This document shows, in pieces, positions 30,024 through 56,464 of a DNA stretch of 64,000 nucleotides (positions are counted from its first letter, which is position 1; the number at the start of each line of letters is the position of its first letter). The translations under genes and the position numbers were made by a program. This DNA comes from Trypanosoma brucei (taxonomy: Eukaryota). The stretch lies in the NCBI GenBank assembly GCA_000002445.1, contig CP000071.1, positions 2,400,001-2,464,000 of the forward strand, given 5' to 3'. The notes below the pieces were generated by a model. The model was not told the origin of the DNA, searched no databases, and was given only the letters and a program-made list of their open reading frames with translations.

Positions 30024-31225
30024 GTGAATGTCCAAAGCTGTTGTTGCACACAAGTTAATAACATCCGCTTCGCCGTTAACACTCCGTACACATTTCAGGC
30101 TCGTCGTGGGAATCGGACATGTAGGTTTATACGCGTGCCTGACTGTTACGCATTGCACCAACCCCCAAATTTACGTTTGGTTGACTAGGAAGTTAGGGTT
30201 GAAACTAGTAGGAAAGTAATGGCAAACACGGCTCTGCTGGAGCGAGAATATGCGCTACCACCGATGGGCGAGCTGTGCTTAGCGACCGCAAGCAGCGGCG
30301 GCGCTGCAACCGTTACGCTTCTTGCTCATAGTGTCGGTGAAAGTCTGTAACCGCGCGCTAGTGCTTTTTTGACAGAGTTGTTTCCAGGTGTGCGTTACCC
30401 TAATTATTTTTTTACGTGCTTCCTGTAGCTTAAACACCTAGCTCTTCTTCCTGATAGTCGCTACGGAGATCATGCTCTTCATCGGATGAAATCGTCGCTG
30501 TAGTCCACTGAAAGAGGCGGCACATCAAAAGGCAGTTGCAATGAACGGCTTATATGAAACACTCTCGTTAACGCAGGGAAAAAGTTGTTGCTATAAGAAT
30601 GTTTGCTACTCTACTTACTCAAATACACGGTAAGATTAGCCCAAGTTGTCAATGCCAATATCTCAGTGTCACCACCTCTTTCACGGATACAAAACTTTCA
30701 CTTCTCATATTAAGGTTTCGCAGTCGATCTCACCGCCACCAGATGTCACCAATAAGAAAATACTCCCCTAGTTCTATACATGCGCCCTAATTTCTGCCAC
30801 ACATTCTACTAATTTTGTTGTTTCGTTCCTTCTCTTATCCTTATTGCTTCAGGGTTTGTGTAGGTAAAGAAGTGTCATGACGTGATGTGTATTGGCTGCG
30901 TGTATTTGAAGCCAGACGCTGGTGAAGACTGACAGCTTATAGTCGGTAAGAACTGTTAGTTTACTATACGTGTGGGTTAACAGTAACTATCCCCTCCTTC
31001 TGTTGCCGTTTCATGGTTCGATGGCGTAGAGAAATTAACTGTGCGTTGTTATACTGACAGTGCTTCTATTGTTGCAGTGGGATTTTGTTTTCTTGCGATG
31101 TGAGCAGCATTACACTTTGCTGCTTTCCCTTTTTCCAATGCACATGTTCACCTTTCGTGTTTAATTGCTTGTTATCACAATTCCAATAGGTTAGGTCACA
31201 TTATTCCTTGCGTAGTGGAAGTGAA

Positions 31226-32608
31226 ATGCGAGCCACCAAAAAGCATCCGAATGATGGAAAGGGAGCCACTACCGATCCATTTGTTGACGGCAGCGATCCA
31301 ATTCCTTCTGAGGTCGCTGCTTTCGATCCTTTGCAGCAGGAACATGTTGATGTGGTAAAGGAAGTGAAACCCTCGCTTTTCGCCGTACTTCTTGAGAAGT
31401 TTATTCCCCATGGTGGATTGTGGTCCTGTGCCCTGAACCTGGCCTCTGCTACATTGGGTGCTGGCATTTGCTCACTGCCTGCAGGTTTCAATTTGAGTGG
31501 GATTGTTATGTCCTGCATTTACCTTGTTTGCGTTGCGGTTGGCACGGTGTACTCTCTTAATCTTCTTGCAAAGGTTGCAGTGAAGACGGGATCGCGTAAT
31601 TACGGAGAAGCTGCCAAAGCAGTGATGGGTCCACTTGCTGGTTACTACACGGCAGCGCTTATGATAGTGATGTGTTTTGGCGGCTCCGTTGCTTACATCA
31701 TCATTATTGGTATCATTTTGAAGGCTGTGCTCAATCGTGATGGTGTTCCGGAATATTTGAAATCAGAAAGTGGTAATCGGCTAATGACATCCATGGTGTG
31801 GTTGGTGATTATCTTGCCTATGTGCATTCCCAAGCAGGTTAATTCATTGCGCCACTTATCCTTTGTGGGTGTGATGTTTATTGTGTATTTTTCATGTGTT
31901 GTTATTGGCCATTCCATTAATAAGATCATTAATGAGGGTGTCGCTGATGGCATCGTGTACATGCGCACTGGAAATAGCGCTTTAGATGGCTTATCACTAT
32001 TTCTCTTCTCATTTATCTGCCAGCCGAACGCATTTGAAATATTCCGTGAGATGAAACACCGGTCGCCGCAACGCTTCACAATATATGGTACTGTCGGCAT
32101 GTCAATGTGTGCTGTGCTTTACTTCCTGGTTGGTTTATTTGGTTATTTGGAGTTTGGAGGGGATGCCATTGACACAGTGCTGTCTCTATATGATCCAGGT
32201 GAGAATGTTGCCGTTGCAATTGCGTACATTGGGGTTGCTGCCAAGGTTTGTGTTGCCTTTGCTTTGCACATCATACCAATGCGTGATGCACTGTACCATT
32301 GTACGGGTTGGCATGTTGATACTGTACCGTACTGGAAGCATTCCCTCATTGTGACGTCTATTACTTTAGCGGCTCTACTAATGGGACTCTTCATTCCGAA
32401 AGCATCCACTGTTTTTGGTCTCGTTGGTGCTTTCTGTGGCGGTCATATCGGACTTGTGTTGCCTCCGTTGTTCTACATGTACTCAGGTGGCTTCACGAGG
32501 GAAAAAGTTGGTAATATTGATTTCTTTGGCACTTATCTCCTTCTTTTTGTTGGTGTTGTGGCTGTTGTATTTGGCACGGTTTCAACAATATACAACACGG
32601 TGCCGTAG
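31226..32608 (+). CDS. Amino acid transporter of the AAT/AAAP family, type 1 copy
   Basis: The ORF track start at 31208 is TTG, and the first in-frame ATG is at 31226 (MRATKKHPNDG...). There are about 11 predicted TM helices. The conserved N-terminal AAAP motif is present (SCALNLASATLGAGICSLP). The protein is near-identical to the 39465 copy. Confidence 0.85.
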   Translation: MRATKKHPNDGKGATTDPFVDGSDPIPSEVAAFDPLQQEHVDVVKEVKPSLFAVLLEKFIPHGGLWSCALNLASATLGAGICSLPAGFNLSGIVMSCIYLVCVAVGTVYSLNLLAKVAVKTGSRNYGEAAKAVMGPLAGYYTAALMIVMCFGGSVAYIIIIGIILKAVLNRDGVPEYLKSESGNRLMTSMVWLVIILPMCIPKQVNSLRHLSFVGVMFIVYFSCVVIGHSINKIINEGVADGIVYMRTGNSALDGLSLFLFSFICQPNAFEIFREMKHRSPQRFTIYGTVGMSMCAVLYFLVGLFGYLEFGGDAIDTVLSLYDPGENVAVAIAYIGVAAKVCVAFALHIIPMRDALYHCTGWHVDTVPYWKHSLIVTSITLAALLMGLFIPKASTVFGLVGAFCGGHIGLVLPPLFYMYSGGFTREKVGNIDFFGTYLLLFVGVVAVVFGTVSTIYNTVP

Positions 32609-33365
32609 TATGATGATGATTTCTACGCGGGTATGTTCTTGGTGCACACATACTTTATTTTTTATCCATAGGTATTGCTTGTGTATATCCACATGCGCAA
32701 ATATATATTTATATATTTGTACCGTGTAATATTTAATGGGTTGTGATTTCTTTCATTTTCTTTGCAGTAGCAATATTTCTATGGATCTTCATCTTTCGGT
32801 TGCTCCCACATCTTGTCAGTGATTTATCACTATTATTACATTCTTTTGTGAAAATTATATATGTCGTTTCTTTATGATAACTGAATCCAGTTATTCATTT
32901 GTCGTACTCCCTTTTGTTTCCATTTTCCCCAAAAGGAGAGAGCACACACAACGGTTGGTGTCCCTTTCCACACTTGTTGTTATTGTTATCATTATTATCG
33001 GGCTAAACTTAGCATTATTCCTCCCCTAGTGTCACTGCTGCTGTCAACTGGGTTATTGTTGTATCTCTTCTCTTTTGTCAGTCTTAGTGATTCAACTGTT
33101 GGAGGAAAAGATCAGGGGCAAGACGTTGTGGTAACGTGTAACGAGATCGGATATCTGTGTTTGAGTTACTGGTTCCGTTTTTTGTTTGCAGTACACATCT
33201 CTTTGTTTGTCGACTTCCTATTGACTTCCAGCACTTTGTATAGAGTTTGCTACAGATGTATTTATTATCTTCTTTCTGGTATGTCTTTCAAAATCTCTTC
33301 GTTTTCACTTGGATGTTATATTACTATCTTGAAGCGTAAGGTTCGTATCATAATACGCTACCAAT

Positions 33366-34751
33366 ATGACGAATCAATCCAGCGGGGGCAATGACAGGGG
33401 CCGTCGTGACACGGATCCTTTTGCTCACGCTGGTGATGTAAAATTATCTTCTGACGCTATTGCACTTGATGTAACTCAGAAAGGCCAGGATGATGTGGTA
33501 AAGGAAGTGAAACCCTCGCTTTTCGCCGTACTTCTTGAGAAGTTTATTCCCCATGGTGGATTGTGGTCCTGTGCCCTGAACCTGGCCTCTGCTACATTGG
33601 GTGCTGGCATTTGCTCACTTCCGACTGGTTTCAATTTGAGTGGGATTGTTATGTCCTGCATTTACCTTGTTTGCGTTGCGGTTGGCACGGTGTACTCTCT
33701 TAATCTTCTTGCAAAGGTTGCAGTGAAGACGGGATCGCGTAATTACGGAGAAGCTGCGCGGATGGTGATGGGTCCACTTACTGGTTACTACGCGGCAGCG
33801 CTTATGATAGCGATGTGCTTTGGAGGTAACGTTGCTTACATCATCATTATTGGTATCATTTTGAAGGCTGTGCTCAATCGTGATAGTGTTCCGGAATATT
33901 TGAAATCAGAAAGTGGTAATCGGCTAATGACATTCATGGTGTGGTTGGTGATTATCTTGCCTATGTGCATTCCCAAGCGGGTTAATTCATTGCGCCACTT
34001 ATCCTTTGTGGGTGTGATCGCTATTGCTTATTTCGCATTTTTCATTGTTGGCCATTCCATTAATAAGATCATTAATGAGGGTGTCGCTGATGACATCGTG
34101 TACATGCGCACTGGAAATAGCGCTTTAGATGGCTTATCACTATTTCTCTTCTCATTTATCTGCCAGTCGAACGCATTTGAAATATTCCGTGAGATGAAAC
34201 ACCGGTCGCCGCAACGCTTCACAATATATGGTATTGTGGGTGTTGTGATGTGTGCTGTGCTTTACTTCCTGGTTGGTTTATTTGGTTATTTGGAGTTTGG
34301 AGGGAAATCTGTTGACACAGTGCTGTCTCTATATGATCCAGGTGAGAATGTTGCCCTTGCAATTGCGTATATTGGAATTGCAATTAAAATAACAGTTGCT
34401 CATGCTCTACACTCTATTCCCATACGTGACGGTCTGTACCATTGTGTGGGTTGGCATGTTGATACTGTACCGTATTGGAAGCATGTTGTTGTGGTTGTAA
34501 CTATTAACTTTACCTCACTGATTATTGGACTCTTCATTCCGAAAGCATCCACTGTTTTTGGTCTCGTTGGTGCTTTCTGTGGTGGTCATATCGGACTTGT
34601 GTTGCCTCCGTTGTTCTACATGTACTCAGGTGGCTTCACGAGGGAAAAAGTTGGTAATATTGATTTCTTTGGCACTTATCTCCTTCTTTTTGTTGGTGTT
34701 GTGGCTGTTGTATTTGGCACGGTAACGACCATAGCCGGTGCACTGTCTTGA
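33366..34751 (+). CDS. Amino acid transporter of the AAT/AAAP family, type 2 copy
   Basis: ATG at 33366 (MTNQSSGGNDRGRRDTDPF...). It shares the conserved TM core with type 1 but differs at the N-terminus and in a central block (FIVGHS, ADDIVY, IVGVVMCAVLY, VALAIAYIGIAIKITVAHALHSIPIRDGLYHCVGW, VVVVVTINFTSLIIG). It also has a distinct C-terminus (TVTTIAGALS). Confidence 0.85.
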   Translation: MTNQSSGGNDRGRRDTDPFAHAGDVKLSSDAIALDVTQKGQDDVVKEVKPSLFAVLLEKFIPHGGLWSCALNLASATLGAGICSLPTGFNLSGIVMSCIYLVCVAVGTVYSLNLLAKVAVKTGSRNYGEAARMVMGPLTGYYAAALMIAMCFGGNVAYIIIIGIILKAVLNRDSVPEYLKSESGNRLMTFMVWLVIILPMCIPKRVNSLRHLSFVGVIAIAYFAFFIVGHSINKIINEGVADDIVYMRTGNSALDGLSLFLFSFICQSNAFEIFREMKHRSPQRFTIYGIVGVVMCAVLYFLVGLFGYLEFGGKSVDTVLSLYDPGENVALAIAYIGIAIKITVAHALHSIPIRDGLYHCVGWHVDTVPYWKHVVVVVTINFTSLIIGLFIPKASTVFGLVGAFCGGHIGLVLPPLFYMYSGGFTREKVGNIDFFGTYLLLFVGVVAVVFGTVTTIAGALS

Positions 34752-35229
34752 CACATTAGATTGCAAATGGAGCGTCTATGGATGTTTAACCTTTATGAAT
34801 CCTCCTGTAGGAATTTGTGTGTGTAAATGAGAATTTCTTGATTCAATAAATAATTCTTTTGATAGAACCAAAAAAAGTAGTAATTAATTAAATGTGGTAA
34901 ATATCTTTTCTTATATTTTTGTTTTCATTCCTTTGGCTGCCTGCACGGCGTCGGTAATAATTGTAATTTGTACCGGTGCTGTTGGGACAGGTTGGTAGTT
35001 TGGCCTCCAGCTCAACCTGTAAGGGTGAGGGGGAATAGCCATGGTGATGGCATTAATTTTAACTTAAGGAGAAAGGGACCAACTGAGCATAAAGGGCAAC
35101 TTTAAGGAAATATATAAGGTTTAGGCAATATATACACGCAGGTATGTCTTGGGTGTAGAAACCCATGTGACTTATTTGCGTGACGTTTTTGCTTTCATTT
35201 TTCATTTTTTTTTTTTGGAAACCCTGCGT

Positions 35230-38200
35230 TACCAATGGTTTTGGATATGGGATTACATGGTATTATTTTGTACGAATTTCCTTATATAAATACACTGTCT
35301 TCTCCAATATTTTACAGCTGCCTGCCAGAGGGTGTAAGTTCTAGAAAGAAAAAAATATGTTTTATGATATCAAAGATGCTGCCTCATACACGATCGATTT
35401 TCAGAGAGAGAGGGTAATAAATGTCACGGCTTTTATGGAATCTGTTCGCCAAAAGGGACCAGCATCTTTTTCTTTCGACTTTGAACCAGTACAGAACCCG
35501 AGGGATGCATACCACGTGGATGGAATTCTGACAATCGAGGATGAAAACCCTAATGGTGTTTACTTTGACCGCGAACAGAAAATGGATCTGGGATCGCTGA
35601 GGCAATTGATGGTAAGTTTTGTGTTGCCTAGAAACTCAGATTTCCTAAAGGCTTTTTGAAGAGGCGAGAGAAGCAATGAATTTGGGGGCTTTAATATTTC
35701 CCTACCTATACTCCACCACAAGGGAAAAAACCAACACAACGGAGAAAGTTACACTGGAGGACGGTAACAACTACTACTACTCCTACCCTTTGTCCGCCAA
35801 TGAGTTACCCGACACGGACGGGAATAGTACGACCCTTACGCGCAGAAAAGTCGACAGCAGCTCAACGTATGAGAGGAGCCTTTCAAGAGATCTGGGAAAT
35901 GTCAAATGGAAATTAAAAACATGCAACAAGGTGGTCGTCGGTGAACGACGTCAAGGTTATTCTAGCTTCTACGCACGATTCGTATATTGTGACACTGGTT
36001 TCAGAAGAAAACAAAGTAGCAAAAAGGATGTGGACACACACAACTTGGGACAAACAGAAAGGGTCCATAATCCGAAGGTTCTATGCGTTTGCAGACAAAC
36101 ACGGACTACCGGCTGTCGAAACGACAATCCCCTTGTTTATTGTAAGTTTGCAACTGGCAAAGAGCACCACCATACAGTACACAAGGACACTACTATCATT
36201 ACTAGCCGCAGAGCATACACCAGCGCGAATGTATTTGTAGCCGGACTATGCAGAATGACAGGGGGAAATACCATAAAACAGGCTTGACCCATGTTGCGTT
36301 GGGAGCTCGATCTCGTATGCGACACTTTAACACTGGAGCGGGATCGAGTAGCTTTAAGACTATCCTGAATCACAGCTAGCAGATGGGGAGAAATAGCAGA
36401 GCTACAACAAGAGAATTTTGTGCTCCATCCACAAGACAAAAAAGATGATGCCATAGTGGTAAACTGAGGAGCACTCCCAAAGACATTCAAAAGCGACACA
36501 CACAGAACCGCGAAGTATGTGGTGATAAGCGGAGAAGATGCAGGAAGGATCCGAAGGGTAATCAGGGAAATGGAGGGTAGTGAAAAGCTCATAGCCATTA
36601 CAACGAAGGGAATGGAAACAATATTCTGCCCATTTGGGGTGACTGCACATTCAATAAAGAGAGGGGCTTTGGCACACCCAGAGTTGGCATTAGTGGCGTA
36701 AAAACACACGCCCTCGATTCAATATTATTAACACAATTGGGAAAGCACACAAACCCTCAGGAGCTTCCTCGAAGCACGGTAGGACGCTATCTGTGTCTAT
36801 GGACCGCCACCATCAACAAGTCGGAGTTGCGCATGACTGTGCTGATGTAAAACCCCTGAAAAGGGGAAAAACAGATTTACCATGGGATATGCCAGATAAT
36901 TCCCGCCAAGCAGGGATAGCTTTAGTAACCAGGAGTAAAACATTTTCAAGGGCATAGCATCACACGACGTTCGCAAGGACCACGGGTGGCGTCTAAGGAA
37001 GAAGAGATGACATTGCCTCTTCAGGAAGTAAATGTGGGCACATTGTATTTAGAACGGGTACGAAGACGAATGAAGGAGGAGACGCGGCAACGGTTTGAGA
37101 AGGTATGGAACTTGAAGATTGCCACAGAAGGAAAATCGAAAGAAAGAGACAGGGAGTCACATTTGCGGATTGCGGAAAAAGACGCTGTAATCATAAAAGA
37201 AGCAGGTGTTATAAGCCAACCTTCGGATCTTCCTACAAAGGGATGGGTCATACCTTTTTCAGTTGTGGAGTAGAAGTCGGCAGGAAAAAGACGCCGATTT
37301 ATTGCTTGGTCCAAGGTAAAAAATGCCAAAAATGATTACGAGGCCGAAGTCCCGTTGGGATATATATCCCAATATCTAAGTGCAGTTTATGATGAATCCG
37401 CAGGGTTGTTTGATTTAAAGGCTTCTTTTTTTCCGGATGAACATGCCACAAAAGACATTTGAGTGTGTCTCCGCTGTTGCACAGAAAAGTGGGGAACTCG
37501 TAGAATTGAATCAACTCCAATTGGTTAATAAATGAAGTCATGAAATTGTAAAGACATCACGAGAGTTTTGGCAGGAGATCCTGGGGCAGCGAAACCACAA
37601 TATGCGGCCACCAACGAATTGAGGGCGCACACATGGATCGACAACATCCGTATCAGTAGACCACACAAAACGGTCAAGGAATGGGGGGACCACATTGCTA
37701 AAAATATGAAAGAGTGCGGAGTAAATGTTGATGAGCAAAGAAATGGCAACACGTTACGAATTTATCGGGTTTTTATTTGAGCATGACAAACAGACGGTTT
37801 TGTTGAATGCAAAGACAATGCGGCGGATTCGAGAATCGGCTCCACTCGAGGTAGCGACCATACAACAGATGGAGAGAGTTGTATTCTGCATGATATATGC
37901 GGCTGGGGTTAGGGGAGAACCACTTTTTTCTTACTATACTTTCTTTTAAATGATGCGTTGGCGTTTATCTCGCCTAAATATGGGTTTGGTAAACCCCTCC
38001 GATTTGGTTTTTCTGCCAAAAAGTGTATTGAAGCTGGAGAAGCAGTGGATGAGCGAGTTGTTGAAAAATGTGCCAGTGGTTCCACCACAGGCTCAGCCCA
38101 CTACGGCCACGCTGGTGACAGATGCCTCCGTGCAGGGATGGGGAGGGATGTCATTTAAAGGTACAGGAGAGATTATAATAGCAGGAGGCTCCTGGGAAAC

Positions 38201-38560
38201 GGCACCTCATATGATATCATAAGGAGAAGTGCGAGCGATTCAATTCGCATTGTTAGCGATTCGGGGGCGTTTCGATGGGCCATTGCACATATGTGTGGAT
38301 AACACTGCTGTAATGCATATTATGAGAAAAGGCAACACGCATTCAAGCGCCCTAGTGCGATAGGCATCTGCAAAAAACAGGATATTACGACAAGAACGGA
38401 TAAGTGCCATATGGAGCTACGTACATTCCGGGATAAATCCGGCCGATGGGGCGTCTCGAGGGTTACTTGCCATGGGGTAGGACTTAGCGAAGGAAAGCGC
38501 GGGAGGCGGGATGAGAACGCTTTCAGCTCTTCCACATAGTTAGTAAATTATCGTTTAAGA
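35230..38560 (+). mobile_element. Degenerate retrotransposon remnant with an LTR/DIRS-type RT-RNase H (VIPER-like), interrupted by frameshifts and stops
   Basis: Several motifs sit in neighbouring broken + strand frames. There is an RT motif-C-like HTWIDNIRIS with downstream VKEWGDHIAKNMKECGVNVDEQ (about 37630-37740). The RT thumb reads YEFIGFLFEHDKQTVLLNAKTMRRIRESAPLEVATIQQMERVVFCMIYAAG (about 37750-37900). RNase H has TDASVQGWGG (D at about 38121), then GEVRAIQFALLAI...ICVDNTAV...HSGINPADGASRG (about 38220-38460) with one in-frame stop. The element lies exactly between the two AAT array copies. Confidence 0.55.
37300..38480 (+). pseudogene. Reverse transcriptase-RNase H pseudogene of the retroelement
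   Basis: The RT and RNase H motifs run across three short ORFs (37568-37780, 37725-37949, 37950-38222) plus a stop-containing continuation. The catalytic D, E, D and D of RNase H are retained in order. The HxxGxxNxxADxxSR terminal motif is typical of LTR/gypsy/DIRS RNase H, not of non-LTR elements. Confidence 0.5.
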
Positions 38561-39464
38561 TCATAGTTTGTGTAGGATGATGAGGAACGCTTACTGTTTC
38601 TTCAGCATGATAGTTATTTCCTATATATATATTTCTATGAAGTAAAGGGAAGGTGAACACAAAGCTATTCGGTTTTCAGTTGAAAAAATAAATGTATTGT
38701 ATTAAGGTTCTTTTCGGATACTGTGATGACGTATGTTTTTCCCTCCTTGTGCTAAATTTCTTTTTCGCTGGTATTCCTCTTTCCATAGATTCGTGGCTTC
38801 CTACCGTTTGGAACGATTACGGACCCCTACACACAATAAGTAAATTTCTTATATATTTCCTTTATATATTTCCTTTATATATATTCTTTATATATTTGTT
38901 TTTGATTTCTTTGGAGTTTTTAAGTCTATTTCTCGTTTGTTTTTTTGTATTCCTGTCTCGCATTTGCCATGTTGTCATTATGTCTGTAACCGAGATTGTC
39001 GTCGAGTGATGCCTATACATGCGCCCTAATTTCTGCCACACATTCTACTAATTTTGTTGTTTCGTTCCTTCTCTTATCCTTATTGCTTCAGGGTTTGTGT
39101 AGGTAAAGAAGTGCCATGACGTGATGTGTATTGGCTGCGTGTATTTGAAGCCAGACGCTGGTGAAGACTGACAGCTTATAGTCGGTAAGAACTGTTAGTT
39201 TACTATACGTGTGGGTTAACAGTAACCATCCCCTCCTTCTGTTGCCGTTTCATGGTTCGATGGCGTAGAGAAATTAACTGTGCGTTGTTATACTGACAGT
39301 GCTTCTATTGTTGCAGTGGGATTTTGTTTTCTTGCGATGTGAGCAGCATTACACTTTGCTGCTTTCCCTTTTTCCAATGCACATGTTCACCTTTCGTGTT
39401 TAATTGCTTGTTATCACAATTCCAATAGGTTAGGTCACATTATTCCTTGCGTAGTGGAAGTGAG

Positions 39465-40847
39465 ATGCGAGCCACCAAAAAGCATCCGAATGATGGAAAG
39501 GGAGCCACTACCGATCCATTTGTTGACGGCAGCGATCCAATTCCTTCTGAGGTCGCTGCTTTCGATCCTTCGCAGCAGGAGCATGTTGATGTGGTAAAGG
39601 AAGTGAAACCCTCGCTTTTCACCGTACTTCTTGAGAAGTTTATTCCCCATGGTGGATTGTGGTCCTGTGCCCTGAACCTGGCCTCTGCTACATTGGGTGC
39701 TGGCATTTGCTCACTGCCTGCAGGTTTCAATTTGAGTGGGATTGTTATGTCCTGCATTTACCTTGTTTGCGTTGCGGTTGGCACGGTGTACTCTCTTAAT
39801 CTTCTTGCAAAGGTTGCAGTGAAGACGGGATCGCGTAATTACGGAGAAGCTGCCAAAGCAGTGATGGGTCCACTTGCTGGTTACTACACGGCAGCGCTTA
39901 TGATAGTGATGTGCTTTGGCGGCTCCGTTGCTTACATCATCATTATTGGTATCATTTTGAAGGCTGTGCTCAATCGTGATGGTGTTCCGGAATATTTGAA
40001 ATCAGAGAGTGGTAATCGGCTAATGACATCCATGGTGTGGTTGGTGATTATCTTGCCTATGTGCATTCCCAAGCAGGTTAATTCATTGCGCCACTTATCC
40101 TTTGTGGGTGTGATGTTTATTGTGTATTTTTCATGTGTTGTTATTGGCCATTCCATTAATAAGATCATTAATGAGGGTGTCGCTGATGGCATCGTGTACA
40201 TGCGCACTGGAAATAGCGCTTTAGATGGCTTATCACTATTTCTCTTCTCATTTATCTGCCAGCCGAACGCATTTGAAATATTCCGTGAGATGAAACACCG
40301 GTCGCCGCAACGCTTCACAATATATGGTACTGTCGGCATGTCAATGTGTGCTGTGCTTTACTTCCTGGTTGGTTTATTTGGTTATTTGGAGTTTGGAGGG
40401 GATGCCATTGACACAGTGCTGTCTCTATATGATCCAGGTGAGAATGTTGCCGTTGCAATTGCGTACATTGGGGTTGCTGCCAAGGTTTGTGTTGCCTTTG
40501 CTTTGCACATCATACCAATGCGTGATGCGCTGTACCATTGTACGGGTTGGCATGTTGATACTGTACCGTACTGGAAGCATTCCCTTATTGTGACGTCTAT
40601 TACTTTAGCGGCTCTACTAATGGGACTCTTCATTCCGAAAGCATCCACTGTTTTTGGTCTCGTTGGTGCTTTCTGTGGTGGTCATATCGGACTTGTGTTG
40701 CCTCCGTTGTTCTACATGTACTCAGGTGGCTTCACGAGGGAAAAAGTTGGTAATATTGATTTCTTTGGCACTTATCTCCTTCTTTTTGTTGGTGTTGTGG
40801 CTGTTGTATTTGGCACGGTTTCAACAATATACAACACGGTGCCGTAG
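39465..40847 (+). CDS. Amino acid transporter of the AAT/AAAP family, type 1 copy
   Basis: The TTG start listed at 39447 was moved to the ATG at 39465. It differs from the 31226 copy by only a few substitutions (e.g. L to S in FDPSQQ, A to T in LFTVLL). Confidence 0.85.
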   Translation: MRATKKHPNDGKGATTDPFVDGSDPIPSEVAAFDPSQQEHVDVVKEVKPSLFTVLLEKFIPHGGLWSCALNLASATLGAGICSLPAGFNLSGIVMSCIYLVCVAVGTVYSLNLLAKVAVKTGSRNYGEAAKAVMGPLAGYYTAALMIVMCFGGSVAYIIIIGIILKAVLNRDGVPEYLKSESGNRLMTSMVWLVIILPMCIPKQVNSLRHLSFVGVMFIVYFSCVVIGHSINKIINEGVADGIVYMRTGNSALDGLSLFLFSFICQPNAFEIFREMKHRSPQRFTIYGTVGMSMCAVLYFLVGLFGYLEFGGDAIDTVLSLYDPGENVAVAIAYIGVAAKVCVAFALHIIPMRDALYHCTGWHVDTVPYWKHSLIVTSITLAALLMGLFIPKASTVFGLVGAFCGGHIGLVLPPLFYMYSGGFTREKVGNIDFFGTYLLLFVGVVAVVFGTVSTIYNTVP

Positions 40848-41604
40848 TATGATGATGATTTCTACGCGAGTATGTTCTTGGTGCACACATACTTTATTTT
40901 TTATCCATAGGTATTGCTTGTGTATATCCACATGCGCAAATATATATTTATATATTTGTACCGTGTAATATTTAATGGGTTGTGATTTCTTTCATTTTCT
41001 TTGCAGTAGCAATATTTCTATGGATCTTCATCTTTCGGTTGCTCCCACATCTTGTCAGTGATTTATCACTATTATTACATTCTTTTGTGAAAATTATATA
41101 TGTCGTTTCTTTATGATAACTGAATCCAGTTATTCATTTGTCGTACTCCCTTTTGTTTCCATTTTCCCCAAAAGGAGAGAGCACACACAACGGTTGGCGT
41201 CCCTTTCCACACTTGTTGTTATTGTTATCATTATTATCGGGGTAAACTTAGCATTATTCCTCCCCTAGTGTCACTGCTGCTGTCAACTGGGTTATTGTTG
41301 TATCTCTTCTCTTTTGTCAGTCTTAGTGATTCAACTGTTGGAGGAAAAGATCAGGGGCAAGACGTTGTGGTAACGTGTAACGAGATCGGATATCTGTGTT
41401 TGAGTTACTGGTTCCGTTTTTTGTTTGCAGTACACATCTCTTTGTCTGTCGACTTCCTATTGACTTCCAGCACTTTGTATAGAGTTTGCTACAGATGTAT
41501 TTATTATCTTCTTTCTGGTATGTCTTTCAAAATCTCTTCGTTTTCACTTGGATGTTATATTACTATCTTGAAGCGTAAGGTTCGTATCATAATACGCTAC
41601 CAAT

Positions 41605-42990
41605 ATGACGAATCAATCCAGCGGGGGCAATGACAGGGGCCGTCGTGACACGGATCCTTTTGCTCACGCTGGTGATGTAAAATTATCTTCTGACGCTATT
41701 GCACTTGATGTAACTCAGAAAGGCCAGGATGATGTGGTAAAGGAAGTGAAACCCTCGCTTTTCACCGTACTTCTTGAGAAGTTTATTCCCCATGGTGGAT
41801 TGTGGTCCTGTGCCCTGAACCTGGCCTCTGCTACATTGGGTGCTGGCATTTGCTCACTTCCGACTGGTTTCAATTTGAGTGGGATTGTTATGTCCTGCAT
41901 TTACCTTGTTTGCGTTGCGGTTGGCACGGTGTACTCTCTTAATCTTCTTGCAAAGGTTGCAGTGAAGACGGGATCGCGTAATTACGGAGAAGCTGCGCGG
42001 ATGGTGATGGGTCCACTTACTGGTTACTACGCGGCAGCGCTTATGATAGCGATGTGCTTTGGAGGTAACGTTGCTTACATCATCATTATTGGTATCATTT
42101 TGAAGGCTGTGCTCAATCGTGATGGTGTTCCGGAATATTTGAAATCAGAAAGTGGTAATCGGCTAATGACATCCATGGTGTGGTTGGTGATTATCTTGCC
42201 TATGTGCATTCCCAAGCAGGTTAATTCATTGCGCCACTTATCCTTTGTGGGTGTGATGTTTATTGTGTATTTTTCATGTGTTGTTATTGGCCATTCCATT
42301 AATAAGATCATTAATGAGGGTGTCGCTGATGGCATCGTGTACATGCGCACTGGAAATAGCGCTTTAGATGGCTTATCACTATTTCTCTTCTCATTTATCT
42401 GCCAGTCGAACGCATTTGAAATATTCCGTGAGATGAAACACCGGTCGCCGCAACGCTTCACAATATATGGTACTGTCGGCATGTCAATATGTGCTGTGCT
42501 TTACTTCCTGGTTGGTTTATTTGGTTATTTGGAGTTTGGAGGGGATGCCATTGACACAGTGCTGTCTCTATATGATCCAGGTGAGAATGTTGCCCTTGCA
42601 ATTGCGTACATTGGGGTTGCAATTAAAATAACAGTTGCTCATGCTCTACACGCTATTCCCATACGTGACGGTCTGTACCATTGTGTGGGTTGGCATGTTG
42701 ATACTGTACCGTATTGGAAGCATGTTGTTGTGGTTGTAACTATTAACTTTACCTCACTGATTATTGGACTCTTCATTCCGAAAGCATCCACTGTTTTTGG
42801 TCTCGTTGGTGCTTTCTGTGGTGGTCATATCGGACTTGTGTTGCCTCCGTTGTTCTACATGTACTCAGGTGGCTTCACGAGGGAAAAAGTTGGTAATATT
42901 GATTTCTTTGGCGCTTATCTCCTTCTTTTTGTTGGTGTTGTGGCTGTTGTATTTGGCACGGTTTCAACAATATACAACACGGTGCCGTAG
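41605..42990 (+). CDS. Amino acid transporter of the AAT/AAAP family, a type 2/type 1 mosaic
   Basis: ATG at 41605. The N-terminus and the block VALAIAYIGVAIKITVAHALHAIPIRDGLYHCVGW...VVVVVTINFTSLIIG are type 2. The central region (MTSMVW...FIVYFSCVVIGHS...ADGIVY...TVGMSICAVLY...GDAIDTV) is type 1. The C-terminus TVSTIYNTVP and the 3' flank are also type 1. Confidence 0.8.
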   Translation: MTNQSSGGNDRGRRDTDPFAHAGDVKLSSDAIALDVTQKGQDDVVKEVKPSLFTVLLEKFIPHGGLWSCALNLASATLGAGICSLPTGFNLSGIVMSCIYLVCVAVGTVYSLNLLAKVAVKTGSRNYGEAARMVMGPLTGYYAAALMIAMCFGGNVAYIIIIGIILKAVLNRDGVPEYLKSESGNRLMTSMVWLVIILPMCIPKQVNSLRHLSFVGVMFIVYFSCVVIGHSINKIINEGVADGIVYMRTGNSALDGLSLFLFSFICQSNAFEIFREMKHRSPQRFTIYGTVGMSICAVLYFLVGLFGYLEFGGDAIDTVLSLYDPGENVALAIAYIGVAIKITVAHALHAIPIRDGLYHCVGWHVDTVPYWKHVVVVVTINFTSLIIGLFIPKASTVFGLVGAFCGGHIGLVLPPLFYMYSGGFTREKVGNIDFFGAYLLLFVGVVAVVFGTVSTIYNTVP

Positions 42991-43740
42991 TATGATGATG
43001 ATTTCTACGCGGGTATGTTCTTGGTGTACACATACTTTATTTCTAGGTATTGCTTGTGTATATCCACATGCGCAAATATTTATTTATATATTTGTACCGT
43101 GTAATATTTAATGGGCTGTGATTTCTTTCATTTTCTTTGCAGTAGCAATATTTCTATGGATCTTCATCTTTCAGTTGCTCCCACATCTTGTCAGTGATTT
43201 ATCACTATTATTACATTCTTTTGTGAAAATTATATATGTCGTTTCTTTATGATAACTGAATCCAGTTATTCCTTTGTCGTACTCCCTTTTGTTTCCATTT
43301 TCCCCAAAAGGAGAGAGCACACACAACGGTTGGCGTCCCTTTCCACACTTGTTGTTATTGTTATCATTATTATCGGGGTAAACTTAGCATTATTCCTCCC
43401 CTAGTGTCACTGCTGCTGTCAACTGGGTTATTGTTGTATCTCTTCTCTTTTGTCAGTCTTAGTGATTCAACTGTTGGAGGAAAAGATCAGGGGCAAGACG
43501 TTGTGGTAACGTGTAACGAGATCGGATATCTGTGTTTGAGTTACTGGTTCCGTTTTTTGTTTGCAGTACACATCTCTTTGTTTGTCGACTTCCTATTGAC
43601 TTCCAGCACTTTGTATAGAGTTTGCTGCAGATGTATTTATTATCTTCTTTCTGGTATGTCTTTCAAAATCTCTTCGTTTTCACTTGGATGTTATATTACT
43701 ATCTTGAAGCGTAAGGTTCGTATCATAATACGCTACCAAT

Positions 43741-45123
43741 ATGACGAATCAATCCAGCGGGGGCAATGACAGGGGCCGTCGTGACACGGATCCTTTTGCT
43801 CACGCTGGTGATGTAAAATTATCTTCTGACGCTATTGCACTTGATGTAACTCAGAAAGGCCAGGATGATGTGGTAAAGGAAGTGAAACCCTCGCTTTTCA
43901 CCGTACTTCTTGAGAAGTTTATTCCCCATGGTGGATTGTGGTCCTGTGCCCTGAACCTGGCCTCTGCTACATTGGGTGCTGGCATTTGCTCACTTCCGAC
44001 TGGTTTCAATTTGAGTGGGATTGTTATGTCCTGCATTTACCTTGTTTGCGTTGCGGTTGGCACGGTGTACTCTCTTAATCTTCTTGCAAAGGTTGCAGTG
44101 AAGACGGGATCGCGTAATTACGGAGAAGCTGCGCGGATGGTGATGGGTCCACTTGCTGGCTACTACGCGGCAGCGCTTATGATAGCGATGTGCTTTGGAG
44201 GTAACGTTGCTTACATCATCATTATTGGTATCATTTTGAGAGCTCTATTTAGTCGTGATGGTGTTCCGGAATATTTGAAATCAGAGAGTGGTAATCGGCT
44301 AATGACATCCATGGTGTGGTTGGTGATTATCTTGCCTATGTGCATTCCCAAGCAGGTTAATTCATTGCGCCACTTATCCTTTGTGGGTGTGATGTTTATT
44401 GTGTATTTTTCATGTGTTGTTATTGGCCATTCCATTAATAAGATCATTAATGAGGGTGTCGCTGATGGCATCGTGTACATGCGCACTGGAAATAGCGCTT
44501 TAGATGGCTTATCACTATTTCTCTTCTCATTTATCTGCCAGTCGAACGCATTTGAAATATTCCGTGAGATGAAACACCGGTCGCCGCAACGCTTCACAAT
44601 ATATGGTACTGTCGGCATGTCAATGTGTGCTGTGCTTTACTTCCTGGTTGGTTTATTTGGTTATTTGGAGTTTGGAGGGGATGCCATTGACACAGTGCTG
44701 TCTCTATATGATCCAGGTGAGAATGTTGCCGTTGCAATTGCGTACATTGGGGTTGCTGCCAAGGTTTGTGTTGCCTTTGCTTTGCACATCATACCAATGC
44801 GTGATGCGCTGTACCATTGTACGGGTTGGCATGTTGATACTGTACCTTACTGGAAGCATTCCCTTATTGTGACGTCTATTACTTTAGCGGCTCTACTAGT
44901 GGGACTCTTCATTCCGAAAGCATCCACTGTTTTTGGTCTCGTTGGTGCTTTCTGTGGTGGTCATATCGGACTTGTGTTGCCTCCGTTGTTCTACATGTAC
45001 TCAGGTGGCTTCACGAGGGAAAAAGTTGGTAATATTGATTTCTTTGGTACTTATCTCCTTCTTTTTGTTGGTGTTGTGGCTGTTGTACTTGGTACTGGAT
45101 CGGCAGTATATTATGCTGTGTAG
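43741..45123 (+). CDS. Amino acid transporter of the AAT/AAAP family, a type 2/type 1 mosaic with a unique 3' end
   Basis: ATG at 43741. The first 150 aa or so are type 2. There is a unique ILRALFSRDGV segment. The remainder is type 1 (VAVAIAYIGVAAKVCVAFALHIIPMRDALYHCTGW, SLIVTSITLAALL). The last 16 aa (VVAVVLGTGSAVYYAV) match neither type. Confidence 0.8.
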   Translation: MTNQSSGGNDRGRRDTDPFAHAGDVKLSSDAIALDVTQKGQDDVVKEVKPSLFTVLLEKFIPHGGLWSCALNLASATLGAGICSLPTGFNLSGIVMSCIYLVCVAVGTVYSLNLLAKVAVKTGSRNYGEAARMVMGPLAGYYAAALMIAMCFGGNVAYIIIIGIILRALFSRDGVPEYLKSESGNRLMTSMVWLVIILPMCIPKQVNSLRHLSFVGVMFIVYFSCVVIGHSINKIINEGVADGIVYMRTGNSALDGLSLFLFSFICQSNAFEIFREMKHRSPQRFTIYGTVGMSMCAVLYFLVGLFGYLEFGGDAIDTVLSLYDPGENVAVAIAYIGVAAKVCVAFALHIIPMRDALYHCTGWHVDTVPYWKHSLIVTSITLAALLVGLFIPKASTVFGLVGAFCGGHIGLVLPPLFYMYSGGFTREKVGNIDFFGTYLLLFVGVVAVVLGTGSAVYYAV

Positions 45124-45594
45124 TTGTTTTTTATGTTAATCGTTGAATATTGTGGGAAGGCACTAGTTTTTTTTTCCTGGATGTTGTGGGGACACTGTTT
45201 TTTATGAGGCCAAGTAATGTTTTTCTGTTTTTTAATATTTGTTTAAAAATTTTTTCTTTGTGGTTTTTATTTTTAATTTATTTTGTTGTTGCTGATTAAT
45301 TGTTTAGTGTACGCCGCTTCGTGTTGTATCCTTATTTTGCTGTACTGTTAAGTGTAGTAGCTTGCTTTTGTTGTTACGGATGAATCGGGGTTGTATCGTC
45401 GCTTTGCGGGTAACCTCCGATGATTTTTTCTTCTTCCTTCTTTGCCCCAGCTGGATGCCGTACGCGACAATCTCGAAGGGAGTTTTCCTTTATTTAGAAT
45501 ATAAGATATTTCCCCCCTATTATTGCTGTCGTGTCGTTGCGGGTTTTAGCTTTATCGAAGCTTAATAATGTTTGTTGCTAACGGTGGGGTTCTA

Positions 45595-45809
45595 TACATG
45601 CGCCCTAATTTCTGCCACACATTCTACTAATTTTGTTGTTTCGTTCCTTCTCTTATCCTTATTGCTTCAGGGTTTGTGTAGGTAAAGAAGTGTCATGACG
45701 TGATGTGTATTGGCTGCGTGTATTTGAAGCCAGACGCTGGTGAAGACTGACAACTTATAGTCGGTGAGAACTGTTAGTTTACTATACGTGTGGGTTAACG
45801 GTAATTAAA
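45595..45809 (+). repeat. Truncated third copy of the array upstream element, marking the 3' boundary of the array
   Basis: This 215 bp is near-identical to 30777-30990 and 39007-39220 (atacatgcgccctaatttctgccacacattc...gtgtgggttaac). It then diverges into unique G+T-rich sequence. Confidence 0.8.
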
Positions 45810-54760: not shown

Positions 54761-56464
54761 AACTGAGCAAAGTAAAGTAAAAAATAAAGTAATGTGAGAG
54801 ATCATATAGCTCTCGGTATTTTAATTGTTGTTGTTGTTGTTTTCCCCCCTTTTCTTTTCTGATTGTAATTTTTCATCTTTGACTTCCTTTTTTTTTTTTG
54901 AGTGCAATTAAGTCGAGGCAACAGTTAAAAAACAAAACAAAACGAAAAGAAGAAATGATATGCCCGTCTATTACTAAAGAAAAACAAACTAACTAAAACT
55001 TATTAAGCACAAATGAATTAACAGGAGGAGGAGGAGGAAGAAGAGATGTTGAACGACATCAGGTTGTAATGGTTGTTTCGATCCGATGCACTTTAAAGCA
55101 AGAAAAATTTCCCCTTTTTTTAAAAAAAAAAGAAAAAAGAAACAACAATATTCTCAAAGATCAGAAGAGAGAAAAATTAAAAAAGAAGAAGCAAAAACAA
55201 CAACAACAACAACAGCAACAACGAAGTGGTGAATAGAAGAAAGAAAGAAAGAAAAAAAAACTAAAACGTCTAATTATTTATTTTATTGTGAGGCATATCG
55301 ACTTTATGAAATGAAAAAATTGTTTTTCACTGTCAAAGGAATTACAAGAAAAAGAAGTAGAAGACAAGCAAAACGGTTTTTAGAACGCATTCGACACTAG
55401 GGAAAAAGGCAAAATTAGGAAAAGTTTGGTTATTAAACTTTTTTTTTTCAGTAATAAAATACAATATAATTCTATCTTATTTTTTTTTTCAATTTTTGTT
55501 TTCCTTAACCTCATTTAGCAAGTAGTTGCAGCTACCAGTGCAAATAATGCAATTTCTTTTTTTTCTTTTTCTCTTTCTCTTTTTGTATGTGCGTGTTCTT
55601 TCCTTCTTTTTTTTTCGTTTTAATTTTTTTTTTTTACTATTTCCCCACTGCGTCACGGTATTTGCCCCGCATGAGTTCCTCTTAAACACGCCTTTATTAT
55701 TCATGTGAGTGCAGGAAATATAAAAAGAGGAGGAAAAGAAAAAAAAAAGAGGAGGATTTGGGGATGAGGGCGGCAGGACTTTAACGATATTAATATATTT
55801 ATTTATGGGTCACAATTTCCTCGGCACTTCAGTACTTTCAATGCAAACAATTGTGATGACTCCACACGCATTTGTGAATAATTACTCTCCATCCTCGAAC
55901 ATGCGGTGCTTCATGTTGCTAAACAGAAGCCACCAAATAATTTAAAAAAAAAGTAAAGAGTAAAAAAGGGGGAAAAAGAAACATTATTTATTTTTCAGAG
56001 TTCTCTTTTTTATTTTTCTTCTTCTTTTTAAAGCCATCATTTCACGCTGTTAAAAAGGTAAAAAAAAAATATGCACATGGCGGTCAAAGTACGCATTCCT
56101 CCAAGACTCAAAATGGGTGAAAGGTTAGCTTGAAACTGTGAGCTGCAGCTTCCACTGATGGAAGGAACCGCTTCAAAAAAAAAAAAGAAAAAAAGGGAGA
56201 CAACCGTAACATAACGAAGGTTTCCGCACTTATATATTCCGGTGTAGGTTCAAATGCAAGTTTTTTTTTTTTGTATCCAATTGAAATAAATGATACGGTA
56301 CTTTGGACCTTTTATGCCGGCTGCGGTGTAACCCTTTATTGCATTAGTGGTGCTGACGTCCTCCACTTTGCCCTACAGAGGGAATGTCGCTTTGTTTTGT
56401 TTTGTTACACTTACCACATAACCATCATCACCGTCACCACCGGTATTTTTTGCATGCTGTCACA

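What the first reader, a model, noticed from the sequence alone, without database searches (positions are those of the whole stretch)
35230..38600. Retroelement scar (LTR/DIRS-type RT-RNase H, VIPER-like) inserted exactly between duplicated transporter units
A 3.3-kb block sits between array copy 1 and copy 2 and carries recognisable but broken RT and RNase H motifs. These include WIDNIRIS, FIGFLFEHDKQ, TDASVQGWGG, ICVDNTAV and HSGINPADGASRG, with one stop inside RNase H. The HxxGxxNxxADxxSR ending points to a gypsy/DIRS-like RNase H, not the ingi/L1Tc non-LTR type that dominates trypanosome genomes. The placement suggests the element either seeded or was captured by the segmental duplication.
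Basis: partly seen in the sequence, partly recalled or inferred. Interest (0 to 1): 0.55.

Follow-up and report, generated by a model that had tools for sequence, protein, structure and literature searches.

The report
Dead VIPER retrotransposon splitting transporter array
This is a decayed copy of VIPER, a tyrosine-recombinase retrotransposon long known in trypanosomes, sitting in the spacer that splits the Trypanosoma brucei AAT9 amino-acid-transporter array; it is an ordinary genomic fossil that was probably already catalogued.

Summary
All five quoted motifs lie on the + strand at the stated places. The block is a VIPER-family (DIRS-order) retrotransposon remnant. The RT/RNase H part matches the intact T. 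grayi VIPER ORF at E=8.5e-154.

The copy is dead. It has 10 in-frame stops and 5 frameshifts. The C-terminal half of gag is missing, and no terminal repeats are detectable.

The window is T. b. brucei TREU927 chromosome 8, at the AAT9 array of five genes. The element lies between genes 2 and 3, inside a 4.29-kb block that is unique in the window. That block is flanked by two 3.95-kb two-gene repeats that are 98.7% identical.

The same dead copy, with shared stops, is at the same place in T. b. gambiense. In T. b. equiperdum the syntenic array has nine copies in the assembly examined, and the whole block is absent. The array therefore expands without the element, so "seeded or captured by the duplication" is not supported.

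VIPER in T. brucei has been known since 2006, and a chromosome 8 copy was listed in 2019. One modest curiosity remains: the brucei and gambiense orthologues differ in sharp ~15% patches, which suggests ectopic gene conversion between dead copies.

The parts
30774..34723 (+). Left two-gene unit of the AAT9 array: upstream segment U, gene 1 (31208-32608) and gene 2 up to 28 nt before its stop. It is a direct repeat of 39013-42962.
   Evidence: 98.7% identical to 39013-42962, with 51 mismatches and no gaps. Repeat families. Pfam Aa_trans E=2.5e-50 and 3.6e-47.
34724..35356 (+). Left flank, unique in the window. It holds the diverged last 28 nt of gene 2 (same length and frame, tail TTIAGALS*) and the spacer or 3' UTR. 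Its right-hand end may hold the element's 5' untranslated end.
   Evidence: No similarity to any other spacer of the locus. 98.4% identical to the T. b. gambiense orthologue. By analogy with the T. cruzi consensus (ORF1 starts at nt 169, PMC5146736), the 5' end would be near 35190.
35357..35722 (+). Remnant of VIPER ORF1 (gag-like), N-terminal domain only. There is one stop at 35657. The C-terminal half, including the zinc knuckle, is missing.
   Evidence: tblastn: T. congolense P0048 E=5e-23, T. theileri P0059 E=9e-12, T. melophagium P0053/P0061 aligned from Met1 to the ATG at 35357. The T. vivax ORF upstream of the YR ORF gives E=5e-9. HMMER search of representatives. No CX2CX4HX4C motif anywhere in the block.
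35941..36847 (+). Remnant of VIPER ORF2 (tyrosine recombinase). It reads in three frames (35941-36231, 36219-36695, 36731-36847), so it has 2 frameshifts. It has 3 stops (36285, 36366, 36465).
   Evidence: T. vivax YR ORFs P0002 and P0003, E=8e-53 and 3e-46. The motifs ITASRWGEIA, GALPKTFKSD, TAHSIKRGALAH and LTQLGKH..RSTVGRYL match the published VIPER YR alignment (PMC6681497 additional files 13 and 18).
36938..38540 (+). Remnant of VIPER ORF3 (reverse transcriptase plus RNase H). It has 3 frameshifts (near 37430, 37556 and 37754) and 6 stops (37271, 37533, 37947, 38220, 38361, 38478).
   Evidence: P0001 (T. grayi) E=8.5e-154 in the database search. tblastn HSPs cover 36938-37753 and 37428-38492. 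Lesion list. The RT motifs DLKASFF and WIDNIRI, and the RNase H motifs TDAS, GEVRA, VDNT and NPADGASR, align with family members.
38541..39012 (+). Right flank, unique in the window. It is T-rich and holds a 13-bp tandem repeat at 38849-38897. It may include the decayed 3' end of the element.
   Evidence: No similarity to other spacers. 98.2% identical to the T. b. gambiense orthologue. Tandem repeat. No split direct repeats.
39013..42962 (+). Right two-gene unit of the array: U, gene 3 (39447-40847) and gene 4 (41605-42990). It is a direct repeat of 30774-34723 and is followed by gene 5 (43741-45123).

Best explanation
The block is a single, dead copy of VIPER. VIPER is the tyrosine-recombinase retrotransposon of trypanosomatids and belongs to the VIPER-like group of the DIRS order.

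The copy lies in the sense orientation of the polycistronic unit, in the spacer between genes 2 and 3 of the five-gene AAT9 amino-acid-transporter array of T. brucei brucei TREU927 chromosome 8. It keeps the family's gene order: gag-like, then tyrosine recombinase, then RT/RNase H.

A live element of this kind would be copied by its RT/RNase H into cDNA and integrated by its recombinase. That mechanism is taken from published work on the order, not shown here. This copy cannot do either:
- Every ORF is broken.
- Half of gag is gone.
- No terminal repeats survive.

It was already dead in the common ancestor of T. b. brucei and T. b. gambiense. It now behaves as passive spacer DNA. The transporter genes on both sides are homogenised and change in number by unequal crossing-over and gene conversion. 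The element with its unique flanks is an island that such recombination can remove whole, and this most likely happened in T. b. equiperdum. I infer that it neither caused nor is needed for the duplications.
For: Shown by tool results:
- Identity: RT/RH E=8.5e-154 to the T. grayi VIPER ORF, and YR E=6.6e-58 and 6.3e-46 to T. vivax ORFs.
- Collinear tblastn hits lie only at 35941-38492.
- The gag-like N-terminus matches T. congolense, T. theileri, T. melophagium and T. vivax ORF1.
- The T. vivax locus L002 has the same ORF order.
- A neighbour-joining tree places the copy inside the Trypanosoma VIPER clade.
- The motifs WIDN, TAHSIKRGALAH and NPADxxSR are typical of the published VIPER alignments.
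- Family-level Pfam hits: RVT_1 in 10 of 17 members, RT_RNaseH_2 in 7 of 17, RT_RNaseH in 4 of 17.
- The predicted fold of the closest intact relative (P0001) matches CaMV, MMLV, foamy virus, HIV and Ty3 RTs at E down to 4e-20. No non-LTR RT is among the 50 matches listed.
- Decay: 10 stops and 5 frameshifts. No repeats between the ends. No zinc knuckle and no poly(A).
- Source: genes 2 and 4 are exactly XP_847648.1 and XP_847646.1 of TREU927.
- The locus layout fits AAT9 (n=5) followed by AAT10 (n=2) of PMC1810246.
- Age: the T. b. gambiense DAL972 orthologue is collinear and shares the stops VVE*K, KQA*PML, RLS*ITAS and VVN*GAL.
- Dispensability: T. b. equiperdum has a syntenic array of nine copies with no trace of 34724-39012 and no Ns.

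From the literature: VIPER is described in T. brucei at low copy number (PMC6390901). All analysed TREU927 copies are degenerate, including one on chromosome 8 at 2428219-2444677 (PMC6681497 additional file 2).
Against: - The true ends of the element could not be defined. No other T. brucei VIPER copy was available for comparison, so the 605-bp and 472-bp unique flanks may be element or host DNA.
- Pfam alone does not recognise the window's own translation. The only hit is PF00336 at E=0.046.
- Absence from T. b. equiperdum rests on one assembly. It could in principle be an assembly collapse, or an ancestral empty site rather than a deletion.
- That this is the chromosome 8 copy listed in 2019 is inferred from position and size, not verified by coordinates.
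Confidence: 0.93

Rival explanations
1. The element seeded the segmental duplication of the transporter units, or was captured and copied by it.
For: - The block is bracketed by two 3.95-kb direct repeats that are 98.7% identical.
- PMC1810246 infers a 'transpositive' origin for the AAT9 locus.
Against: - There is only one copy in the window, and it is not part of the repeated unit.
- Unique DNA separates it from both junctions.
- The left junction lies inside the coding tail of gene 2. That tail has the same length and frame as the others, so the junction looks like a homogenisation boundary rather than an insertion site.
- Copy number to the left of the block differs: 2 genes in TREU927 and 3 in DAL972.
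- The T. b. equiperdum array reached nine copies without the block.
Confidence: 0.05
2. It is a remnant of a non-LTR retroposon (ingi, L1Tc or DIRE), the class that dominates trypanosome genomes.
For: None was found. Ingi-type elements also carry RT and RNase H, so the idea was worth testing.
Against: - All significant homologues are VIPER ORFs.
- A tyrosine recombinase lies upstream on the same strand.
- No endonuclease domain was found, and no poly(A) run.
- The RNase H matches the LTR-type Pfam families.
- The 50 fold matches listed are all retroviral, pararetroviral or Ty3 RTs.
Confidence: 0.01
3. It is a TATE element, the other tyrosine-recombinase retrotransposon of kinetoplastids, rather than VIPER.
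For: TATE has the same ORF order, and the two families are sister groups (PMC6681497).
Against: - The YR motifs are of the VIPER type (TAHSIKRGALAH, LGKH..RYL). They are not the other type seen in the same published alignment (e.g. VRKGAARH...LTGHTRLDTLRRYLG), which I take to be TATE but whose labels I did not check.
- The RT carries the WIDNIR motif found in the VIPER alignment.
- T. brucei genomes gave zero tblastn hits for TATE proteins (PMC6681497 additional file 1).
Confidence: 0.01
4. It is a domesticated, VIPER-derived host gene or regulatory module, like the VIPER-derived gene of Leishmania braziliensis and Crithidia.
For: - Domestication of VIPER ORF3 is documented elsewhere (PMC5146736).
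- The block is kept at the same place in two subspecies.
Against: - Every ORF is broken.
- The two orthologues carry different lesions in RNase H.
- The block is absent from T. b. equiperdum.
- No Rfam family matches the window.
Confidence: 0.02

Closest known systems
VIPER of Trypanosoma cruzi (Vazquez 2000; Lorenzi 2006; Repbase consensus 4390 bp) and the degenerate T. brucei VIPER copies catalogued by Ribeiro et al. 2019 (PMC6681497)
   Same: - The ORF order is the same: gag-like, YR, RT/RH.
- The signature motifs are the same: DLKASFF, WIDNIR, TDAS..GWG, NPADxxSR, TASRWxEIA, TAHSIKRG, LGKH..RYL.
- The host genus is the same.
- It is degenerate, like all TREU927 copies analysed in 2019.
- It is probably the listed copy Tb927_08_v5.1 2428219-2444677.
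   Different: - It is about 0.9 kb shorter than the T. cruzi consensus because the C-terminal half of gag is missing.
- No split direct repeats (A1...B1-A2-B2) or SIRE-like ends are detectable.
- It shares only about 37% amino-acid identity with T. cruzi RT/RH. It is closer to T. grayi and T. theileri, at about 50%.
TATE (telomere-associated transposable element) of Leishmania (Viannia) and other kinetoplastids
   Same: Same order, same ORF architecture, and the same kind of terminal repeats in intact copies.
   Different: The YR and RT motifs differ. TATE was not detected in T. brucei. This copy is chromosome-internal, inside a gene array.
DIRS-1, Ngaro and PAT tyrosine-recombinase retrotransposons
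   Same: They use RT/RNase H plus a tyrosine recombinase in place of a DDE integrase and protease. No target-site duplication is expected.
   Different: Sequence similarity is too low to detect with the profiles used here. The published phylogeny groups VIPER RNase H with hepadnaviruses. That is echoed by the only Pfam hit of the window's translation, PF00336 at E=0.046.
Retroviral, pararetroviral and Ty3 RT-RNase H (CaMV 8r0s, MMLV, foamy virus, HIV-1, Ty3 4ol8)
   Same: The predicted fold of the family's RT plus RNase H matches them at E=4e-20 to 5e-16. Both domains align in the same order.
   Different: Identity is 10-17%. Motif C reads IDN rather than YxDD. There is no protease or integrase.

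Membership tests
VIPER (VIPER-like group, DIRS order) | RT/RNase H ORF homologous to VIPER ORF3, with the family motifs | tested here: met
   E=8.5e-154 to T. grayi P0001. About 50% identity over 482 columns, and placement inside the Trypanosoma VIPER clade. WIDN and NPADG occur 40 and 22 times in the published VIPER RT/RH alignment.
VIPER (VIPER-like group, DIRS order) | Tyrosine recombinase ORF upstream of RT/RH on the same strand, with the catalytic boxes | tested here: met
   35941-36847 matches the T. vivax YR ORFs at E=8e-53. The boxes ITASRWGEIA, TAHSIKRGALAH and LGKH..GRYL match the published VIPER YR alignment. A profile search of the PDB found no recombinase, so the fold itself was not confirmed.
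VIPER (VIPER-like group, DIRS order) | Gag-like first ORF, with a CX2CX4HX4C zinc knuckle in several Trypanosoma species | tested here: inconclusive
   The N-terminal domain is present at 35357-35722. The C-terminal half is absent and no zinc knuckle is found in any frame.
VIPER (VIPER-like group, DIRS order) | Split direct repeats: A1 at the 5' end and B1-A2-B2 at the 3' end (SIRE corresponds to A2-B2) | tested here: not met
   Only AT-rich low-complexity repeats occur within 34600-39300. No self-similarity was found by blastn. This is expected for a decayed copy, and it is the reason the ends are undefined. No SIRE sequence was available for direct comparison.
VIPER (VIPER-like group, DIRS order) | No target-site duplication on insertion | not testable with these tools
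   The ends of the element are unknown. The property is stated in PMC12278014.
VIPER (VIPER-like group, DIRS order) | Coding competence (autonomous copy) | tested here: not met
   10 in-frame stops, 5 frameshifts and a truncated gag. It is a member of the family as a fossil, not as an active element.
Non-LTR retroposons ingi / L1Tc / DIRE | AP endonuclease upstream of the RT, a 3' poly(A) tail and target-site duplications | tested here: not met
   No endonuclease domain in any stitched translation. No A run of 8 or more in 34724-39012. A tyrosine recombinase occupies the upstream position.
Non-LTR retroposons ingi / L1Tc / DIRE | RT/RNase H closest to non-LTR RTs | tested here: not met
   Homologues are VIPER ORFs only. 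The fold matches listed are retroviral, pararetroviral or Ty3. No ingi sequence was compared directly.
LTR retrotransposons in the strict sense (Ty3/gypsy, Ty1/copia, Bel-Pao) | Long terminal repeats, aspartic protease and DDE integrase | tested here: not met
   No terminal direct repeats. No protease or integrase hits. Only the RT/RNase H resembles this class.

The most novel reading that the evidence does not exclude
Dead VIPER copies scattered through the T. brucei genome still exchange sequence by ectopic gene conversion.

The TREU927 and DAL972 orthologues of this copy are about 98% identical in their unique flanks and in most of the element. They differ by 14.9% in three sharply bounded patches (35725-36077, 36919-37002, 37816-38478). 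Within those patches both versions still read as VIPER but carry different stop codons.

If this is real, these fossils are recombination partners and could also mediate rearrangements. The alternative explanation is a chimeric assembly of a repeated sequence in one of the two genomes.
Probability: 0.4. Interest if true: 0.35.

Novelty: already known. Interest (0 to 1): 0.17.

Why it matters
It matters little in itself. VIPER has been described in T. brucei since 2006, and a degenerate chromosome 8 copy was listed in 2019.

The useful points are local:
- The AAT9 array is really two sub-arrays separated by a 4.3-kb island that holds a retrotransposon fossil. The published analysis of this locus (PMC1810246) does not mention a retroelement.
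- The island is present in TREU927 and in T. b. gambiense but absent from T. b. equiperdum. That makes it a simple structural marker.
- The same contrast gives a natural demonstration that the array expands and contracts by recombination between the transporter genes, not through the element.
- The patchy divergence between orthologous copies hints at continuing conversion among dead copies.

Tried and rejected
- Pfam on the window's own stitched translations gave only a sub-threshold hepadnavirus polymerase C-terminal hit. Even the intact T. grayi ORF is below the RVT_1 cut-off. Family-level and fold-level tests were needed instead.
- A profile search of the PDB with the YR alignment found no recombinase.
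- Exact look-ups of window proteins in the gene-position index failed. The source was identified through cluster membership instead.
- A search for split direct repeats, inverted repeats or SIRE-like ends found nothing.
- Tests of whether the unique flanks resemble the normal intergenic spacer, the spacer after gene 5 or the DNA upstream of the array were all at shuffle level.
- The T. congolense contig with a gag-like piece (L003) has no YR or RT. It shares only 267 nt of coding similarity, so it did not help to define the ends.
The 100-aa ORF was used instead.
- Vazquez 2000 (PMC15765) is not held. The origin of the name TcC31.12 could not be checked.
- Rfam found nothing in the window.
Full report
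**1. The observation.**
WIDNIRIS is in one frame and the other four are in the next frame. A six-frame view shows many short ORFs and stops across 35.2-38.6 kb. Pfam on stitched translations of the window gave no significant hit. The only match was the hepadnavirus polymerase C-terminal (RNase H) family at E=0.046, so motif spotting alone would not have been enough.

**2. What the block is.**
I searched the large protein collection with a stitched translation of 35941-38470.
- The best hit was a 649-aa T. grayi protein (P0001, E=8.5e-154, 50% identity), covering the RT/RNase H part.
- Two T. vivax proteins (P0002 and P0003, E=6.6e-58 and 6.3e-46) covered the upstream part.

In tblastn these proteins match only 35941-38492 in the whole 64-kb window, collinearly but with changes of frame.

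The upstream part is a tyrosine recombinase. Its boxes ITASRWGEIA, GALPKTFKSD, TAHSIKRGALAH and LTQLGKH..RSTVGRYL are almost letter for letter those of the VIPER recombinase in the published alignment of Ribeiro et al. 2019 (PMC6681497 additional files 13 and 18). The RT motif WIDNIR, which stands in place of YxDD, and the RNase H ending NPADxxSR are also typical of the published VIPER RT/RH alignment.

The 100-aa ORF at 35357-35656 is the N-terminal domain of the gag-like first ORF.
- It matches multi-copy hypothetical proteins of T. congolense (E=5e-23), T. theileri and T. melophagium.
- It matches the ORF that lies just upstream of the recombinase ORF in the T. vivax locus L002 (E=5e-9).
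- One T. melophagium protein (P0054) joins this domain to RT/RH. In two others Met1 aligns with the ATG at 35357.

The element therefore has the VIPER gene order: gag-like, YR, RT/RH.

**3. Test of the rival class.**
A second search with the intact T. grayi ORF gathered 17 relatives from T. theileri, T. melophagium, T. cruzi (944 aa, 59 member sequences), unnamed assemblies and Diplonema.
- Ten of the 17 match Pfam RVT_1. Seven match RT_RNaseH_2 and four match RT_RNaseH, the RNase H families of LTR-type elements.
- A structure predicted from this alignment has pLDDT 80-96 over residues 140-615.
- Its best PDB matches are CaMV RT (E=4.4e-20), MMLV, foamy virus, HIV-1 and Ty3. No non-LTR RT is among the 50 matches listed. 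A sequence profile against the PDB gave the same two families weakly.
- A neighbour-joining tree puts the window's RT/RH inside the Trypanosoma VIPER clade, next to T. grayi, T. theileri and T. melophagium. T. cruzi VIPER is the next group out.
- There is no endonuclease domain, no poly(A) run and no zinc knuckle in the block.

The ingi/L1Tc reading is refuted. The TATE reading is excluded by the motifs and by the reported absence of TATE from T. brucei.

**4. State of the copy.**
Following the frames set by the homologues, the copy has 10 in-frame stops: 1 in gag, 3 in YR and 6 in RT/RH. It has 5 frameshifts: 2 in YR and 3 in RT/RH.

Only 219 nt separate the end of the gag similarity from the start of the YR similarity. 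The T. cruzi consensus has a 446-aa gag, so the C-terminal half of gag is missing.

No direct or inverted repeats link the two ends. The split direct repeats of intact VIPERs are therefore not detectable, and the ends are undefined. By analogy with the T. cruzi consensus (168 nt before ORF1 and 176 nt after ORF3), the element would span roughly 35190-38716.

**5. Where it sits.**
Genes 2 and 4 of the array are exactly XP_847648.1 and XP_847646.1 of T. b. brucei TREU927, on a 2,481,190-bp record.

The layout is five Aa_trans genes, a phosphodiesterase-like gene, then two more Aa_trans genes. This fits the AAT9 (n=5) and AAT10 (n=2) loci of chromosome 8 described by Jackson 2007. That paper also notes that AAT9 copies 1 and 3 cluster together, and it never mentions a retroelement.

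The array period is 2143 bp, with one interval of 6096 bp. The block that is unique in the window is 34724-39012. It is bracketed by two two-gene units, 30774-34723 and 39013-42962, that are 98.7% identical with no gaps.

The left junction falls 28 nt before the stop of gene 2. That tail is diverged but has the same length and frame as the others. It looks like the edge of homogenisation, not an insertion point.

The flanks 34752-35356 and 38541-39012 resemble no other spacer of the locus.

Ribeiro et al. list a degenerate TREU927 copy at Tb927_08_v5.1 2428219-2444677. The position near the right end of the chromosome and the implied hit length of about 2.46 kb fit this copy. This is an inference.

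**6. Comparison with relatives.**

*T. b. gambiense DAL972.* The block is at the same place (L001 13379-17959), with three genes to its left rather than two. It shares the stops VVE*K, KQA*PML, RLS*ITAS and VVN*GAL. The copy was therefore dead before the two subspecies split.

*T. b. equiperdum (GCA_003543875.1).* The region between the same flanking genes is an uninterrupted array of nine transporter genes.
- There is no match to any part of 34751-39012.
- No VIPER protein matches it.
- No gene has the diverged tail of gene 2.
- There are no Ns.

All T. brucei VIPERs analysed are degenerate, and the copy is shared by two divergent subspecies. I therefore infer that the block was lost in the T. 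equiperdum lineage by unequal crossing-over between the flanking genes. Either way, the array expands without the element.

**7. An unexpected detail.**
Identity between the TREU927 and DAL972 orthologues is 99.4% in single-copy DNA upstream and 98.2-98.4% in the unique flanks. Within the element it is mosaic.
- Three patches (35725-36077, 36919-37002, 37816-38478) hold 179 differences in 1200 bp (14.9%).
- The rest of the element holds 46 differences in 1984 bp (2.3%).
- The index of dispersion is 6.4.

In the RNase H patch both versions still match the T. grayi protein about equally (50% and 47%). They carry different stops: 38220 and 38361 occur only in TREU927. Uniform decay cannot produce this pattern. 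The two explanations are ectopic gene conversion from other VIPER copies, or a chimeric assembly in one genome. I could not reach other T. brucei copies to find donors.

**8. Verdict.**
The claim that it seeded or was captured by the duplication is not supported. The feature is a known kind of fossil in a reference genome and was probably already listed, so I score it low. The only mildly novel lead is possible conversion among dead copies.

Noticed in passing
window 35725-36077, 36919-37002, 37816-38478, compared with L001 (T. b. gambiense): Orthologous VIPER copies differ by 14.9% in three sharply bounded patches and by about 2.3% elsewhere, and their RNase H parts carry different stop codons. 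This suggests ectopic gene conversion from other VIPER copies, or a chimeric assembly.
   Followed up: partly
L004 and L005 (T. b. equiperdum CM010679.1, 1464456-1498680), compared with window 30774-45123: The syntenic AAT9 array has nine tandem genes and lacks the whole 4.29-kb block. TREU927 has 2+3 genes, and DAL972 has 3 plus at least 2. This is a large copy-number and structural polymorphism.
   Followed up: yes
window 45592-45804: A 213-bp, 98% identical partial copy of segment U lies downstream of the last array gene, ahead of the phosphodiesterase-like gene. Segment U otherwise precedes genes 1 and 3. This looks like a truncated further unit.
   Followed up: partly
window 34724-34751 and 45095-45123: Genes 2 and 5 have their own diverged C-terminal tails (TTIAGALS and GSAVYYAV, against STIYNTVP in genes 1, 3 and 4). 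Each is the last gene of a sub-array, which marks where homogenisation stops.
   Followed up: partly
window 37634-37657 and alignment A1/A3: RT motif C of the VIPER family reads (V/T)WIDN(I/L)R, or YIDG in a distant member, instead of YxDD. This holds in intact ORFs and in the published alignment too. The second catalytic aspartate is therefore not conserved in this family.
   Followed up: partly
window 35357-35656 (gag-like ORF) against P0047, P0049 and P0052: The gag-like N-terminal domain scores E=1e-25 against a 3889-aa Flavobacterium gliding-motility protein, through 20 short repeated stretches. It scores against two similar giant proteins as well. This is probably a summed-repeat artefact, but it was not examined.
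   Followed up: no
P0075 and P0076 (Diplonema papillatum): The VIPER RT/RH has clear homologues (E about 1e-50) in a diplonemid, outside Kinetoplastida. Ribeiro et al. 2019 reported few significant hits outside Kinetoplastida.
   Followed up: no
P0067, P0070, P0071 and P0072 (T. cruzi): T. cruzi VIPER RT/RH proteins carry the database names 'target of rapamycin (TOR) kinase 1' and 'rab1 small GTP-binding protein'. These look like propagated misannotations.
   Followed up: no
window 55001-56000 and 58001-60000: Stretches of very low G+C (0.31-0.33) flank the second AAT10 gene. They were not examined.
   Followed up: no
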